A stretch of DNA of 64,000 nucleotides from the human T2T-CHM13v2.0 reference genome, Homo sapiens (GCA_009914755.4 CP086569.2:640001-704000); one strand, 5' to 3'; shown: positions 5,164 to 50,497, counted from the first letter of the stretch. Numbers and translations are program-made. The notes: generated by a model from the letters alone, not told the origin.

Positions 5164-5723
5164 TTTTTTTTGAGACAGAGTCTCGCTCTGTGGCCCAGGC
5201 TGGAGTGCAACGGCGTGATCTCGGCTCACTGCAACGTCCGCCTCTCGGGTTCAAGCGATTCTCCTGTCTCGGTTCCCAGAGTACCTGGGATGACAGGCAC
5301 CCGCCACCACGCACGGCTAATTTTTGTATTTTTAGTAGAGACGGGGTTTCAGCGTGTTGGCCAGGCTGGTCTCAAACGCCTGACCTCAGGTGATCCACCC
5401 ACCTCAGCCTCCCAAAGTGCTGGGATGACAGGCACCCGCCACCACGCACGGCTAATTTTTGTATTTTTAGTAGAGACGGGGTTTCAGCGTGTTGGCCAGG
5501 CTGGTCTCAAACGCCTGACCGCAGGTGATCCACCCACCTCAGCCTCCCAAAGTGCTGGGATGACAGGCACCTGCCACCACGCACGGCTAATTTTTGTATT
5601 TTTAGTAGAGACGGGGTTTCAGCATGTTGGCCAGGCTGGTCTCGAACGCCTGACCCCAAGTGATCCGCCAGCCTCGGCCTCCCAAAGTGCTGGGATGACA
5701 GGCATGAGCCACCACGCCCGGCC
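5164..5723 (-). mobile_element. Alu, antisense, 560 bp, with internal 135-bp tandem triplication of the left-monomer region
   Basis: The segment gggatgacaggcacccgccaccacgcacggctaatttttgtatttttagtagagacggggtttcagcgtgttggccaggctggtctcaaacgcctgacc... recurs at 5287, 5422, 5557 and partially at 5692. Confidence 0.9.
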
Positions 5724-6032
5724 AAGATTTAAAAAAAAAAAAAAAAGTCACTGTTGAAATACTGGCACGTAGAATGCCAGAGATGAGGAGGATTCTAGGT
5801 AGGACAACAGCAACCTTCGCTCCCGGACAACAGGTAGCAACATCGTCCTCATATCCCTGGCCCTCTTATCGTCACCTTCCCTTCCACGCCTCCCTCGGGA
5901 GCGATTGTATCTATTGTCTCCCAGCCCCGATGATGGATGCTCAGGGCACTCATCTCTCTGAGTGATCAGTATTTTCCGTGTTCTTCTCAGAGTCTCTGAC
6001 ACTGTGGGCCGGGCCCTGGCTACAGCTGACGA

Positions 6033-6090
6033 GTGTGTGTGTGTGTGTGTGTGTGTGTGTGTGTGTCTGTGTGTGTGTGTGGGGGGGGGG
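6033..6090. repeat. (GT)n microsatellite followed by a G10 run
   Basis: gtgtgtgt... then gggggggggg. Confidence 0.95.
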
Positions 6091-7029
6091 TTCATTTACA
6101 TTTCAATCTTCACCTCATGAATGTAAAAGCTCAGCCGGCAAATTAATAACAGGGTGATGAGGACGCCTCCCTGCACTGGGAAGGGGGGCACCACCTCCCC
6201 TCGTTTCCAACCCCTAGAAGCCGACAGCCCCTTCCTGGCCATTGTGTTCGGCAGCCGTCTCATTTACCGGCCCGCGGTGAATGACATTACAGAGAAAGGC
6301 ATATCCAGAGTGACACAAATGTATTTCTGTCCCAAGCAAGGCAGTCTATTTTCATAGAATCAAGGGGCTATTTGTCTGGGGACGATTTAGTTTCCATGAA
6401 AAATTAAAATGGTTTTCTGTGCTGCTATAGGGTGGCGAAATTTAATTTGTCACTCGTTTACTAAAGCAGGTATAAAAAGGAGAAGAATTGGATGTCTGAT
6501 GGGCTGAAATTGGCGACGTCCCTCGGTTTGGTCTCCCAAGGCCTGGGGACGCAGAGGCCTGTCCCGGCCACCCCCAACGCCCCCCTCTCCCCACCCTCGG
6601 AGGACCTGGTCATCTTAAACCAACTTACAGAAAACCTTTGGGGAGGCTGTGCCAATCACCCGGAAAACCACGTTCCTATCGATCCCCTGTCTGCGTGATT
6701 TATGGCTTCATTTTACGGTAATTGAGAATTAGTGAGGAGATGAGCAGGACTGCACGTGGTGACACGGGGTCCACATCTCATTGAATTGCGGGATGACGTG
6801 GAAATTAATGTGACACACGGGAGATGTGGAACAGGGGGCCGTGTGTCTCCAGCATCACACGGGCGTCCCCGGTCACCAGCACCCCCTCCCCGGTCTGCCT
6901 TCGAAGGCAGGATGAGGATGATTGATCCGAATCGGTTTCAATCCGTCTCAACTGCAGCCCGGCCGATGGACGGGACACTCACAATTGGATTGAGCCTCCT
7001 ACGAACAAAGTTCATCGACAGCCACCCGC

Positions 7030-7155
7030 AGGTCAATGGCTGCAGCTCACCAGCGTGGCACACGTATACGTATGTAACTAACCTGCACAATGTGCACATG
7101 TACCCTAAAACTTAAAGTATAATCATAATAAAATAAAATAAAGGAAAAAAAATAG
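7030..7155 (+). mobile_element. L1 LINE 3'-terminal fragment (~120 bp) with A-rich tail
   Basis: cgtatacgtatgtaactaacctgcacaatgtgcacatgtaccctaaaacttaaagtataat matches the L1 3' end. Confidence 0.8.
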
Positions 7156-7844
7156 GAGGTCTCGTGTCATCCGACCGCCTCAAAATGAAGTTTTGAAAAT
7201 CTACGTCTTGCAGCCGACATGCCAAATCTCTAAAGCCAACCAACAGTGGCAAAGTCGAATTACAGATGGACTCTGCTGGGCTGTTTACAGGATAATCGGC
7301 TGCTCTGATCGTGAATAAAGGTGCTAACTACTCCCCACTGTGCAGAGAGAAAAAGGTTCTAACTACCCCCACCCTACAGAGAGAAATGTCTGCGTCCCGT
7401 AAGGGCAGGAGGGGTGACAGAGGAGATCTGGGAAGCTCTAGGGGTGAAAAGAGGCTTATGTCTGGCCTCAGCCATCTCTCCAAAGCCTTACAGAGGCCTC
7501 CTCTGCAGATTTGCACACCTAAAGCTCGGCGGGGTTTCAAGACCGTTAAGAATCTCTTTTGCATTTGAACAGGGACGTAGGTGTGAACGTAGAGTGTCCA
7601 GCAGAAAAAAAAACAAACAAACAAAAAAAAAAAAAAAACGGAGCTGTGGAAAGTTCCGGAGAAGCTCACAGTGTAACAGTGGGAAATTCTTCACCTTCTG
7701 GTGCTCGGCAAATTGTTTGACAACATCTGGGTAGAAAATGGAGAGCAGAGTCTGTGAACGCTCCCCTCAAGAAAACCCGCTCATGTGTGTTTGGAAAATG
7801 CAATGGGGTTGGGATCATGGCTTTTTCTTATAAAAACACTGGGT

Positions 7845-48400: not shown

Positions 48401-48883
48401 CCTTGCTAAGAAATCATTCAGGTTTTCAGCATGGCAATAACAGAACATGATGCTAAGGGCAAGACCAAAGAAGGCAAGGCTGCTGTTGTTATGCACATAT
48501 CCATGAACATGGTATAACCAAACCCAGGCTCCGTGGCTCGTGGCTTGAAAACCAATCTGGAGAGTTGGTGGGAGGAAAACCAGGTTTATTTGGAGAGCTG
48601 GCAAACCAAGAATCTGTTGAACAAAAGTCCGAGTGTACCCCCTTAAATAAGTACATCTTTCAGGCTCTTTTTATATGAAGGGCATGGGAAAGAGGAGGGG
48701 GTTGGGATAGAGAGATGACCAATGGCCACGGACCTCTGAATGCTAGTCAGGGTCCAAAGAAGTTGAAGACTTTTTTGTCCTTGGTCAAGTCACCATGCTC
48801 CCAAAAATCTTTAACAAAACATAGTTGTTTTACATGTTTTCCCTTTAATCGCAGAGTTAGTTTTAAAAACTACATGATTGCGG

Positions 48884-49330
48884 CTGGGGGTGGTGGCTCA
48901 CACCTGTCATCCCAGCACTTTGGGAGGCCGAGGCAGGTGGATCACTGCTGGGATCCAGTTGTATCAGCAAGCTACCTCTGACAGTCAGCAAATTAGGAAC
49001 TCCTAACAGTTTCGTGCCTAACAGGCATGGTAGCTCATGTCTGTCATCCCAGCACTTTGGGAGTCCGAGGCAGGTGGATCACCTGAGGTCAGGAGTTCGA
49101 CACCAGCGTGGCCAACATGGTGAAAACCTGTCTCTACTAAAAATACAAAAATTAGCCGGGCATGGTGGCGGGCACTTGTAATCCAAGTTACTCGGGAGGC
49201 TGAGGCAGGAGAATTGTTTGAACCCGGGAGGCGGAGGTTGTAGTGAGCCGAGATTGCACCGCTGCACTCCAGCCTGGGCAACAGAGCAAGACTCCATCTC
49301 AAACAAACAAACAAACAAACAAAGAAAAAA
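48884..49330 (+). mobile_element. TSD-flanked chimeric retro-insertion: Alu 5' 61 bp, then a 74-bp non-Alu segment, then a full Alu with (caaa)n/A tail
   Basis: The TSD actacatgattgc lies at 48871-48883 and again at 49331-49343. The 74-bp segment (ctgctgggatccagttgtatcagcaagctacctctgacagtcagcaaattaggaactcctaacagtttcgtgcc) is 96% identical to 47392-47463, which also abuts an Alu beginning taacaggcatggt.gctcatgtctgtcatccc. Confidence 0.8.
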
Positions 49331-49540
49331 ACTACATGATTGCTGTTTTTGTTTTATCTCTGTGCTCTGAAACTATCCTATCCTATGTGCAAGAATGGGT
49401 AAGGTCCCCTTAAACAAAAAGTAGAGTTAGATATGTTCCTTATTTTGCTGTTTCACTGTTACTGCGGCTCCTGGAGGAAATGTCATTCAGAACGAGGTTC
49501 TCAACCCTGGATGGGAGGAAGCTTTGGTGTTTAGTGTTTC

Positions 49541-49971
49541 TTTGTTTTGTGTTTGAGACGGGTTTTTCTCTGTCTCCCGGGCTGGAGTGCAGTGGCACAA
49601 TTATACTTTACTGCAGCCTCCACTTCCTATGCTCAAGGGATCCTTCCACCTCGGCCTCCGAAAGTGCTGGGATTACAGGTGTGAACCACCGTGCCTGGCT
49701 AATTTTCTAATTGTTTCGTAGAGGTGGGGTTTCACTATGTTGTCCCGTCTGGAGTGAAACTCCTGGGTTCAAGCATCCTCCTTCCTCACCCTCCCAAAAT
49801 GCTGGGATTACAGGTGTGAGTGACTTCACTGGGCTAATTTTCTCATTGTTTTGCAGAGATGGGGGTCTCACTATGTTGCCTAGGATGGGCTTATACTCCC
49901 GGGTTCAAGCAGTCCTCCTGCCTCAGCCTCCCAAAGTGCTGGGATTACAGACATGAGCCACCGGGGCTGGC
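49541..49971 (-). mobile_element. Older Alu, antisense, with ~135-bp internal tandem duplication of the left-monomer region (2.3 copies)
   Basis: gctgggattacag(gtgtga|acatga).. recurs at 49666, 49801 and 49937 with taattttct.attgtttcgtagaggtggggtttcactatgttg between. Confidence 0.85.
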
Positions 49972-50059
49972 AAAGCTTTGAAACTAGAATGTGGAGGTCC
50001 AGTGGTAAAGTTTTGACAAGTCTTGGAAGATGTTGGGCCATGGCAATGCTGATGATTCT

Positions 50060-50497
50060 TTTTTTTTTTTGGTGACAGAGTCTTGCTCTTTGTCTAGGCT
50101 GGAGTGCAATGGCACAATCTCGGCTCAGTGCAAGCTCCGCCTCCCGGGTTCACGCCATTCTCCTGCCTCAGCCTACCAAGTAGCTGGGACTACAGGTGCC
50201 CGCCACCACGCCCGGCTAATTTTTTGTATTTTTAGTAGAGATGTGGTTTCACCATGTTAGCCAGGATGGTCTCAATCTCCTGACCTCGTGATCCGCTTGC
50301 CTTGGCCTCCCAAAGTGCTGGGATTACAGGCGTGAGCCACCGCGCCCAGCCACACCAGGCTAATTTTTGTTTTGTTTTGTTTTTTTAGTAGAGACGGGGT
50401 TTCACCATGTTGGCCAGGCTGGTCCCTGACCTTGTGATCCGCCCACCTCGGCTTCCCAAAGTGCTGCGATGACAGGCATGAGCCACCACGCCTGGCC
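50060..50497 (-). mobile_element. AluY plus an extra left monomer (~146 bp) as a single TSD-flanked insertion
   Basis: The TSD aatgctgatgattct (50045-50059) matches aatgttgatgattct (50498-50512). The full antisense AluY spans 50060-50351 (ttcacgccattctcc; cctgacctcgtgatccgc) and is followed by a second antisense left monomer at 50352-50497. Confidence 0.85.

What the first reader, a model, noticed from the sequence alone, without database searches (positions are those of the whole stretch)
5164..50497. Recurrent internal tandem duplication of the Alu left-monomer region in at least four independent Alus
Four Alus carry the duplication: at 5164-5723 (135 bp x3), 25483-25906 (141 bp x2), 49541-49971 (~135 bp x2.3) and 50060-50497 (an extra 146-bp left monomer inside one TSD-flanked insertion). 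In each case the duplicated unit is the left monomer plus the A-rich linker, in antisense orientation. A right-monomer duplication occurs at 56242-56698 and a partial one at 7845-8256. The TSD at 50045-50059 and 50498-50512 shows that for that element the extra monomer was part of the inserted copy, or arose without disturbing the flanks. This cluster of variant Alus within 64 kb is unusual. It suggests either local replication slippage or unequal exchange at the linker, or retrotransposition from source elements that carry duplicated monomers.
Basis: seen in the sequence. Interest (0 to 1): 0.55.

Follow-up and report, generated by a model that had tools for sequence, protein, structure and literature searches.

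The report
Alu-derived tandem repeats in PAR1

Summary
Three of the four named Alus carry true in-place duplications of a ~135-141 bp unit: 5164-5723 (three units), 25483-25907 (two) and 49527-49971 (an old L-L-L/R array). The repeated unit is not "left monomer plus linker" cut at the linker. It is a phase-shifted unit whose junction lies in sequence shared by the left and right monomers, as expected from unequal homologous exchange between the two halves. The fourth case (50059-50497) is not a duplication. It is an AluS-type left monomer joined to a complete AluY inside one target-site duplication. The right-monomer repeat at 56239-56700 is probably a real old duplication. The case at 7845-8262 shows no evidence of duplication.

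The first array appears in a published hg19 table as chrX:750335-750629 (135 bp x 2.18), which places the window in pseudoautosomal region 1 downstream of SHOX. The window has one unit more than hg19. That table holds 86 such ~135-bp Alu repeats genome-wide. Two lie in PAR1 and 14 lie within 2 Mb of chromosome ends.

The kind is already catalogued. The cluster exceeds a uniform expectation and fits PAR1's 17-fold crossover rate. A common source element is rejected.

The parts
5164..5723 (-). AluS (annotated AluSx1/Sz in hg19) with three left-type units: L-linker, then two R5'/L3' hybrid units, then R and tail
   Evidence: TRF 135 x 3.2 at 95%; consensus mapping; unit dissection; listed in hg19 as chrX:750335-750629, 135 x 2.18
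5588..5723 (-). Unit A: original left monomer plus linker
   Evidence: Shares non-CpG derived changes at consensus 76 and 102 (and 27) with units B and C; 90% identical to them
5453..5587 (-). Unit B: hybrid with right-monomer 5' end (GCCGTGCG...GGTGCC) and left monomer from ~35, plus linker
   Evidence: R-type up to consensus 20/155 and L-type from 35, so the junction lies within the shared 14-nt GCCTGTCATCCCAG
5318..5452 (-). Unit C: second hybrid unit, 133/135 identical to unit B
   Evidence: this is the likely extra unit relative to hg19
5164..5317 (-). Right monomer and A8 tail of the same Alu
   Evidence: Shares its private 5' variants (G>T at 141, GGGTGCC) with units B and C
5126..5148 (+). 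Left copy of the direct repeat AGATT(T)A16-18 flanking the whole element, 15 nt from the tail
   Evidence: 22-nt match with 1 mismatch to 5725-5746. An extension to 5161/5768 is not better than shuffles
5725..5746 (+). Right copy of the flanking direct repeat, flush with the Alu 5' end
25483..25907 (-). AluJo with one extra 141-bp unit: L-linker, R5'/L3' hybrid with linker, then R
   Evidence: TRF 141 x 2.0 at 96%; best consensus AluJo; dissection; no TSD recognisable
25634..25774 (-). Hybrid unit U2: right monomer 136-~206 joined to left monomer ~72-135 plus a 25-nt linker
   Evidence: Shares GCTGACT, GCACA, CCCAGG and GGACTGC with R. Identical to L from GAGACCAGACTGG onward, including 9 derived changes. 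Junction at or next to GCTTGAGCC
49527..49971 (-). Old AluJ array: U1 (L+linker), U2 (L+linker), U3 (left-type 5' half, right-type 3' half, degenerate tail)
   Evidence: U1/U2 are 81.5% identical, the highest of 21 AluJ left-monomer pairs. The 20-mer linker AAACAATKAGAAAATTAGCC is found only in these two units
49519..49526 (+). 8-nt direct repeat AAGCTTTG flanking the whole array (other copy at 49973-49980)
   Evidence: 8/8 match adjacent to both ends
50059..50351 (-). Complete AluY with A12 tail
   Evidence: Best consensus AluY; Y-diagnostic GGAGCTTGCA, GAATGGCGTGAACC and GACCATCC
50352..50497 (-). AluS/Sg-type left monomer, expanded linker and the first 9 nt of a right monomer (GCCTGGTGT), abutting nt 1 of the AluY
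   Evidence: S-diagnostic GACCAGCCTGGCCAAC; no private changes shared with the AluY left monomer
50045..50059 (+). Target-site duplication, tail-side copy (AATGCTGATGATTCT)
   Evidence: 14/15 match to 50498-50512, flush on both sides
50498..50512 (+). Target-site duplication, 5'-side copy (AATGTTGATGATTCT)
56239..56700 (-). AluS (56410-56700) followed in sense by a second right monomer that starts in the linker (56239-56409); 161-bp period
   Evidence: TRF 161 x 2.1 at 87%; 8 shared derived changes including the rare 142 G>A (1/65) and 199 C>T (4/61); rank 62 of 2383 pairs. AAAAAAG(AA) at both ends of the second monomer fits either a duplication or a TSD
7845..8262 (+). Alu 1-199, 12 nt, then Alu 97-289 with tail; origin unresolved
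   Evidence: shared-change score is ordinary (rank 210 of 2383); weak 8-nt flanking repeat TAAAAACA

Best explanation
Three Alus (5164-5723, 25483-25907, 49527-49971), and probably a fourth (56239-56700), grew in place after insertion by unequal homologous exchange between internal direct repeats.

Mechanism. The left and right monomers of an Alu are diverged copies of each other, offset by about 135 bp. When two copies of the locus (sister chromatids or homologues) pair one monomer out of register, a crossover or a break-repair re-annealing in a block that both monomers share adds one unit. That unit consists of the right-monomer 5' end, then the left-monomer 3' part, then the linker. Repeating the process expands or contracts the array like a minisatellite. 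The right-monomer case uses the two A-tracts (linker and tail) in the same way.

Why here. The window lies in human pseudoautosomal region 1, about 130-190 kb downstream of SHOX. Male crossover there is about 17 times the genome mean and Alu density is high, so such events are concentrated.

Shown: the anatomy, the in-register junctions, the private mutations shared between units, the PAR1 location, the one-unit difference from hg19, and the excess over a uniform rate.

Inferred: that meiotic recombination, rather than replication slippage, is the driver.

The fourth named element is a different thing. An AluY landed in the linker or right-monomer start of an older AluS, and the older right monomer was later lost, probably by Alu-Alu or A-tract recombination. 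This last step is inference.
For: Anatomy:
- TRF arrays at 135 and 141 bp, 95-96% matches.
- Hybrid units whose 5' ends carry the private variants of the element's own right monomer and whose 3' parts carry the private variants of its own left monomer.
- Junctions fall in shared blocks at homologous positions (R~155-169 with L~21-34; R~206 with L~71), so the exchange is in register.
- Stepwise history in 5164-5723: unit A differs from B/C by about 7%, while B differs from C by 1.5%.
- The unique shared linker 20-mer in the two units of 49527-49971.
- Flanking direct repeats enclose the whole composites.

Locus:
- The 135-bp unit, with four private variants, is listed as hg19 chrX:750335-750629 / chrY:700335-700629 at 2.18 copies, against 3.2 here.

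Baseline:
- 86 loci of this class in hg19. Two are in PAR1 (0.08-0.2 expected), and 14 lie within 2 Mb of chromosome ends, 5.7-fold by length.
- The window also holds four qualifying tandem repeats against 0.65 expected, plus a ~990-bp Alu-bounded tandem duplication.

PAR1 properties:
- 17-fold crossover rate and minisatellite-like peaks (PMC4102438).
- Alu-mediated rearrangements around SHOX (PMC8801136).

Reciprocal product:
- Loss of the right monomer by recombination between the two A-tracts is described for Alu monomers (PMC5753468).
Against: - Sequence alone cannot separate meiotic unequal crossover from intra-allelic repair or replication slippage.
- The PAR1 placement rests on one 135-bp consensus match, though it carries four private variants.
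- The hg19 baseline comes from two clusters of a table that was cut when stored, so the genome-wide count is a lower bound. The terminal enrichment is not normalised for Alu density.
- The window was chosen because it looked unusual, so the per-window P values overstate significance.
- By substitutions alone, the two units of 49527-49971 are only modestly more alike than unrelated AluJ monomers.
- 25483-25907 has no recognisable TSD.
- The left flanking repeat of 5164-5723 sits 15 nt from the tail.
Confidence: 0.72

Rival explanations
1. Replication slippage or template switching in germline mitoses, between the ~135-bp-offset homologous blocks of one Alu, made the duplications. PAR1 location is incidental or acts through replication properties rather than meiotic recombination.
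For: The products are identical to those of unequal exchange: in-register junctions in 14-29-nt shared blocks. Ahmed and Liang could assign a mechanism to only 6% of TE-derived repeats.
Against: The class is enriched 5.7-fold by length within 2 Mb of chromosome ends, and 2 of 86 loci are in PAR1. This tracks male recombination, although the figure is not normalised for Alu density or replication timing.
Confidence: 0.2
2. The variant Alus were retrotransposed from source elements that already carried duplicated left monomers (trimeric master Alus).
For: One pair of flanking repeats encloses each composite. Five of the six elements share GATGACAGG.
Against: The subfamilies differ (AluS, AluJo, AluJ), and so do the junctions and periods: 135, 141 and 135/137. 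The units share the private mutations of their own neighbours. GATGACAGG is carried by 24 of 60 left monomers in the window. The 5164-5723 array differs by one unit from hg19. The 86 hg19 loci span many subfamilies and registers.
Confidence: 0.03
3. The extra monomers are independent insertions (FLAM, FAM, or truncated Alus) that landed next to or inside pre-existing Alus.
For: This is true in part for 50352-50497, which belongs to a different subfamily from its neighbour. It is possible for 56239-56409, where AAAAAAG(AA) at both ends could be a TSD of a 5'-truncated Alu in the older tail. It is also possible for 7845-8262.
Against: For 5164-5723 and 25483-25907 the extra units are R/L hybrids with the private variants of both halves of the host Alu. 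For 49527-49971 the units share a unique linker and join in register without a tail or TSD between them. The extra monomer at 50352-50497 is AluS-type, not FLAM or FAM, and has no TSD of its own. 56239-56409 shares the rare 142 G>A with its neighbour.
Confidence: 0.05
4. The cluster is a chance coincidence in a very Alu-dense window, picked out after the fact.
For: With a uniform rate and 86-500 such loci genome-wide, 0.5-18 windows of this Alu density would hold two or more. Ahmed and Liang saw no obvious genomic hotspots for TE-derived repeats in general. Another pair lies 7 kb apart on chr11.
Against: The window holds two recent arrays plus two to three older ones, four qualifying tandem repeats against 0.65 expected, and a ~990-bp Alu-bounded duplication. 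It also sits in the one region with a second such locus and the highest crossover rate.
Confidence: 0.1

Closest known systems
Alu-derived minisatellites / TE-derived tandem repeats (Jurka and Gentles 2006, as described in Ahmed and Liang 2012, PMC3389668)
   Same: Head-to-tail repeats of an Alu segment that arose in place. Periods of 109-148 bp cover the left monomer, linker and right-monomer start. Copy numbers are mostly 2-3.6, with one array of 17.5. The array at 5285-5722 is itself an entry (chrX:750335-750629).
   Different: That catalogue requires >=95% identity, so it would miss 49527-49971 and 56239-56700. It reported no genomic hotspots, whereas this subclass looks enriched at chromosome ends and in PAR1. 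The copy number here is one unit higher than in hg19.
Recent Alu monomers made by recombination between the two A-tracts (Kojima 2011, summarised in PMC5753468)
   Same: The same substrates (internal direct repeats of one Alu) and the same kind of exchange. The monomer is the deletion product, and 56239-56700 (L-R-R) has the structure expected of the reciprocal duplication product.
   Different: Here the retained product is the gain, not the loss. In 5164-5723 and 25483-25907 the exchange uses left/right monomer homology rather than the A-tracts.
Alu recombination-mediated deletions and Alu/Alu-mediated rearrangements (for example PMC2041999; SHOX-region deletions in PMC8801136)
   Same: Homology-driven exchange between Alu sequences, frequent in PAR1. 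The ~990-bp duplication at 33818-35453 and the inferred loss of the older right monomer at 50352 are of this type.
   Different: Those events join two separate Alus and remove or duplicate the DNA between them. The main events here occur within a single Alu, one monomer out of register.
Free left Alu monomers (FLAM/FAM)
   Same: Monomer-length, left-type sequence with an A-rich 3' end.
   Different: The extra units here are not older monomer families, have no TSD or tail of their own, and carry the host Alu's private mutations.
PAR1 minisatellites
   Same: Tandem arrays in the region with the highest crossover rate. PAR1 recombination peaks are often minisatellite-like (PMC4102438).
   Different: Periods reported there are 4-101 bases and are not described as Alu-derived. 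Here the seeds are Alu monomers with 135-161-bp periods.

Membership tests
Alu-derived minisatellite / tandem repeat | Head-to-tail repetition of a segment that aligns to an Alu consensus | tested here: met
   TRF 135 x 3.2 and 141 x 2.0; consensus mapping; 135/137-bp spacing at 49640-49912
Alu-derived minisatellite / tandem repeat | Units derive from one another in place, being closer to each other than to other Alus | tested here: met
   Private derived changes are shared between units. Ranks 1, 6 and 19 of 2383 Alu pairs for 25483-25907 and 5164-5723. A unique shared linker in 49527-49971, although that case is only modest on substitutions.
Alu-derived minisatellite / tandem repeat | The array lies inside a single insertion, with one pair of flanking repeats | tested here: inconclusive
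   22-nt and 8-nt flanking repeats for 5164-5723 and 49527-49971. The first is offset by 15 nt on the tail side. None is recognisable for 25483-25907.
Alu-derived minisatellite / tandem repeat | Already catalogued as such, or variable in copy number | tested here: met
   hg19 chrX:750335-750629, 135 x 2.18, in Suppl. Table 3 of PMC3389668, against 3.2 copies here. Not testable for the other arrays because the stored table is cut.
Independent FLAM/FAM or truncated-Alu insertion | Own target-site duplication and own A-tail around the extra monomer | tested here: not met
   Units join linker-to-monomer in register with no tail or TSD between them in 5164-5723, 25483-25907 and 49527-49971. 50352-50497 has no TSD of its own. 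56239-56409 is ambiguous because of AAAAAAG(AA).
Independent FLAM/FAM or truncated-Alu insertion | Sequence of an older monomer family, or of a different subfamily from the neighbour | tested here: not met
   Extra units match the host's own monomers. The exception is 50352-50497, which is AluS-type next to an AluY.
Retrotransposed copies of a trimeric source Alu | Same junction and diagnostic mutations at several loci, each with its own TSD | tested here: not met
   Different subfamilies, junctions and periods. The one shared variant is carried by 24 of 60 left monomers in the window.
Pseudoautosomal region 1 locus | Sequence identity to a mapped PAR1 sequence | tested here: met
   The 135-bp unit, with four private variants, equals the hg19 chrX:750335 / chrY:700335 entry, and every consensus position matches at least one window unit. 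This is a single marker only; SHOX CNE9/10 sequences are not in the window, as expected from the coordinates.
Meiotic unequal crossover product | Unit change accompanied by exchange of flanking markers | not testable with these tools
   Needs haplotypes, pedigrees or sperm typing.

The most novel reading that the evidence does not exclude
Alu left/right-register expansions may be a specific footprint of very high meiotic recombination. On this reading they are strongly concentrated per Alu in PAR1 and in the terminal 2 Mb of chromosomes, so Alus seed part of the minisatellite load there. In the same regions Alus acquire a site-specific A>C change at consensus position 27, at a frequency like that of CpG decay. 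Together these would make Alus a built-in reporter of recombination-associated mutagenesis.
Probability: 0.4. Interest if true: 0.45.

Novelty: already known. Interest (0 to 1): 0.25.

Why it matters
In itself, little. Alu-derived ~135-bp tandem repeats are catalogued, and the best example here is already in a published hg19 table. The value lies in the context.

- The window sits in the SHOX downstream regulatory landscape of PAR1, where Alu-mediated deletions cause short stature. It shows many independent products of Alu-based unequal exchange within 64 kb, including one array that differs in unit number from hg19.
- The published list reads differently once the class is isolated: 16% of loci lie in the terminal 2 Mb of chromosomes. 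This suggests a recombination dependence that the original paper did not report and that complete genomes could test cheaply.

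Tried and rejected
- Rfam scan of the window: no hits.
- TRF at score 30 on 49400-50600: calls neither 49527-49971 nor 50059-50497.
- Scans of metagenome and prokaryote-genome collections for the private 33-35-mers of the 135-bp unit, hoping for contaminating human haplotypes with other copy numbers: none found.
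- Search of the window for SHOX CNE9/10 sequence printed in PMC7020756, as a second PAR1 marker: absent, consistent with the inferred coordinates.
- Search of the stored, truncated supplement for the 141-bp unit of 25483-25907: not found, which is uninformative because the file is cut.
- Jurka and Gentles 2006 could not be read.
- Common-source idea based on the shared GATGACAGG: rejected, because the variant is in 40% of left monomers here.
- PRDM9 13-mer creation by the position-27 change: checked by eye and no match. This is my own reading, not a tool result.
- Homologous in-register gene conversion as the origin of 50059-50497: rejected, because the AluY is complete from nt 1 and is preceded by 9 out-of-register nt of a right monomer.
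- A long (~36-44 nt) TSD for 5164-5723: the extension beyond the 22-nt A-rich core is no better than shuffles.
- Literature searches for a described position-27 hotspot: nothing found.

Full report
**What the window is.** The sequence is primate and very Alu-dense. A blastn search with AluY, AluSx and AluJo consensi gives 71 non-redundant Alu segments covering about 17.5 kb of the 64 kb. Of the 71 segments, 49 are on the minus strand. Rfam finds nothing.

**Element 5164-5723.** In sense orientation it reads unit A (left monomer plus linker, 5588-5723), unit B (5453-5587), unit C (5318-5452), then the right monomer and A8 tail (5164-5317).
- Units B and C start with the element's own right-monomer 5' end, including its private G>T at consensus 141 and its GGGTGCC.
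- They switch to left-monomer sequence between consensus 21 and 34, inside the 14 nt (GCCTGTCATCCCAG) that this element's two monomers share.
- From there on they carry the private non-CpG changes of unit A at consensus 76 and 102.
- B and C differ at 2 of 135 positions. Unit A differs from them at about 7% of the shared part, mostly at CpG sites.
- There were therefore two steps, one old and one recent.
- A 22-nt direct repeat, AGATT(T)A16-18, lies on both sides. It is flush with the 5' end and 15 nt from the tail. A longer extension is no better than shuffles.

**Element 25483-25907.** This is an AluJo with left monomer plus a 25-nt linker (25775-25907), a hybrid unit (25634-25774) and the right monomer (25483-25633).
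- The hybrid follows the right monomer through GCTTGAGCC, sharing GCTGACT, GCACA, CCCAGG and GGACTGC.
- It then follows the left monomer and is identical to it from GAGACCAGACTGG to the end of the linker, including nine derived changes.
- The junction joins homologous positions (about R206 to L71), so it is in register.
- The period is 141 rather than 135 only because this linker is longer.
- No TSD is recognisable.

**Element 49527-49971.** This is an old AluJ with three units (49835-49971, 49700-49834, 49527-49699).
- All three have left-type 5' halves. Only the last has a right-type 3' half.
- The first two units are 81.5% identical, the highest of 21 AluJ left-monomer pairs in the window. 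Their count of shared derived changes (8, of which 3 are non-CpG) is only slightly above unrelated pairs.
- They do share a linker form, AAACAAT[G/T]AGAAAATTAGCC, that occurs nowhere else in the window even with two mismatches allowed.
- They join linker-to-monomer in register.
- The whole array is bracketed by AAGCTTTG at 49519-49526 and 49973-49980.
- A left-type 5' half in the last unit needs at least one further exchange or conversion; this step is inference.
- TRF does not see this array even at score 30.

**Element 50059-50497.** The TSD is real: 14/15 and flush on both sides. The content is not a duplication.
- 50059-50351 is a complete AluY from its first nucleotide, with Y-diagnostic positions in both monomers.
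- 50352-50497 is an AluS/Sg-type left monomer (GACCAGCCTGGCCAAC) with an expanded linker and nine nucleotides of a right monomer (GCCTGGTGT).
- The two left monomers share no private changes.
- Because the AluY is complete and the joint is out of register, gene conversion is unlikely.
- My preferred reading is inference. The AluY inserted by the usual route into the linker or right-monomer start of an older AluS that owns the TSD. The 17 nt AAAAATTAGCCTGGTGT to its 5' side would be one copy of its own TSD. The older right monomer was then lost by recombination between the two right monomers or the two A-tracts.
- A chimeric cDNA made by template switching is the alternative. An outgroup orthologue would decide between them.

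**The two further cases.**
- 56239-56700 is an AluS followed in sense by a second right monomer that begins in the linker (period 161; 87% identity). The two right monomers share eight derived changes. These include G>A at 142, found in 1 of 65 other Alu segments, and C>T at 199, found in 4 of 61. The pair ranks 62nd of 2383 Alu pairs on a rarity-weighted score. AAAAAAG(AA) at both ends of the second monomer fits either a tandem duplication between the linker and tail A-tracts or the TSD of a truncated Alu. I favour the duplication at roughly two to one. It is the reciprocal of the A-tract recombination known to make Alu monomers (PMC5753468).
- 7845-8262 (Alu 1-199, 12 nt, then Alu 97-289) shows nothing beyond ordinary Alu-Alu similarity (rank 210). 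I leave it unresolved.

**Where the window lies.** The supplementary table of Ahmed and Liang 2012 (PMC3389668) lists TE-derived tandem repeats in hg19. It contains the 135-bp unit of the first element, with its four private variants, at chrX:750335-750629 and chrY:700335-700629 (135 bp x 2.18, 95%, AluSx1/AluSz, minus strand).
- Every position of that consensus matches at least one unit in the window.
- The window is therefore human, or extremely close to human, pseudoautosomal region 1. It corresponds to roughly hg19 chrX:745-809 kb, in the same orientation, within the SHOX downstream regulatory landscape.
- It carries one more unit than hg19 (3.2 against 2.18 copies).
- SHOX CNE9/10 sequence is not in the window, as those coordinates predict.

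**Is the kind known, and is the cluster unusual?** Clusters 6 and 7 of the same table consist of Alu-derived repeats with periods of 109-148 bp covering the left monomer, linker and right-monomer start. There are 88 rows and 86 distinct loci, drawn from many subfamilies and registers, with copy numbers up to 17.5. The kind is therefore catalogued.
- That paper reports that 0.18-0.40% of Alus hold any repeat at >=95% identity, and that no genomic hotspots were obvious.
- With 86-500 such loci among about 1.19 million Alus, 65 Alus should hold 0.005-0.03. P(>=2) is 1e-5 to 4e-4 per window, which corresponds to 0.5-18 such windows genome-wide under a uniform rate.
- Two of the 86 loci are in PAR1, where 0.08-0.2 are expected.
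- Fourteen of the 86 lie within 2 Mb of a chromosome end, which is 2.9% of the sequence. I used hg19 chromosome lengths from memory and did not normalise for Alu density.
- The window also has four repeats meeting that paper's criteria against 0.65 expected, and a ~990-bp tandem duplication bounded inside Alu right monomers.
- PAR1 has a male crossover rate 17-fold above the genome mean and recombination peaks that are often minisatellite-like (PMC4102438). GC-biased conversion there is about twice the autosomal level (PMC9575207). Alu-mediated rearrangements around SHOX are well known (PMC8801136).
- The simplest account is that ordinary Alu left/right unequal exchange happens more often here.
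- The caveats are that the window was selected after the fact, the stored table is truncated, and the PAR1 placement rests on a single marker.

**Common source rejected.** The elements belong to different subfamilies and have different junctions. Their units carry their own neighbours' private changes. The one variant most of them share, GATGACAGG (consensus position 27 A>C), is present in 24 of 60 left monomers in the window, including ordinary Alus.

**Verdict.** It is wrong for the fourth and unsupported for the partial one. The mechanism is unequal homologous exchange within single Alus, not at the linker and not from a variant source. The kind is already known. The local density is explained by PAR1. 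Meiotic exchange rather than replication slippage is inferred, not shown.

Noticed in passing
window-wide; e.g. 5285-5296, 5690-5701, 7867-7878, 25874-25885, 36826-36837, 56665-56676: Alu consensus position 27 A>C (CCTGTAATCCCAG to CCTGTCATCCCAG) is carried by 24 of 60 left monomers, including AluJ, AluS and the least diverged Alu. Other non-CpG, non-diagnostic sites change in about 4% of copies. Among the 86 hg19 Alu-repeat consensi in PMC3389668 the variant occurs in 4, all within 2.2 Mb of a chromosome end (4 of 15 terminal against 0 of 71 elsewhere, counted by eye). A PAR1 Alu printed in PMC7020756 also has it. I found no description in the literature, and the cause is unexplained; a hypermutable site combined with strong GC-biased conversion is one possibility.
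   Followed up: partly
33818-35453: A ~990-bp tandem duplication whose unit is an AluJ with an (ATTATA)n array grown inside its linker. The left-monomer parts are 97% alike and the right-monomer 5' halves 96%, but the right-monomer 3' ~100 bp are only about 78% alike, so the boundary lies inside the right monomer (Alu-Alu unequal exchange). At 35400-35453 a further partial left monomer plus linker joins in register, giving another L-L arrangement.
   Followed up: partly
48220-48292 within AluJo 48037-48355: A 35-bp x 2.1 internal tandem duplication (94%) in the right monomer of another Alu.
   Followed up: no
29828-30886; 52650-53442; 54825-55802; 41086-41368: Non-Alu tandem arrays: 339 bp x 3.1 (95%), 158 bp x 5.0 derived from the 3' part of L1 ORF2 (89%), 170 bp x 5.8 (95%) and 32 bp x 8.8 (99%). 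There are also many long AT-rich arrays (13.5, 26-27.6, 34-35.2, 42.7-44, 60.2-63.2 kb). The window is generally rich in tandem repeats.
   Followed up: no
window-wide; e.g. 11906-12176 vs 12199-12359, 8394-8682 vs 8751-9035, 16598-16881 vs 16894-17181, 3763-4051 vs 4064-4353: Adjacent same-strand Alu pairs are more alike than random pairs. Four of ten such pairs rank in the top 4% of 2383 pairs for rarity-weighted shared derived changes. This suggests whole-Alu tandem duplication or local Alu-Alu gene conversion.
   Followed up: partly
window-wide: Alu strand bias: 49 segments on the minus strand against 22 on the plus strand.
   Followed up: no
hg19 chr11:7615750-7616061 and chr11:7622912-7623227 (PMC3389668 Suppl. 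Table 3): Another pair of 135/134-bp Alu-derived repeats only 7 kb apart outside PAR1, so small clusters of this class also occur elsewhere.
   Followed up: no
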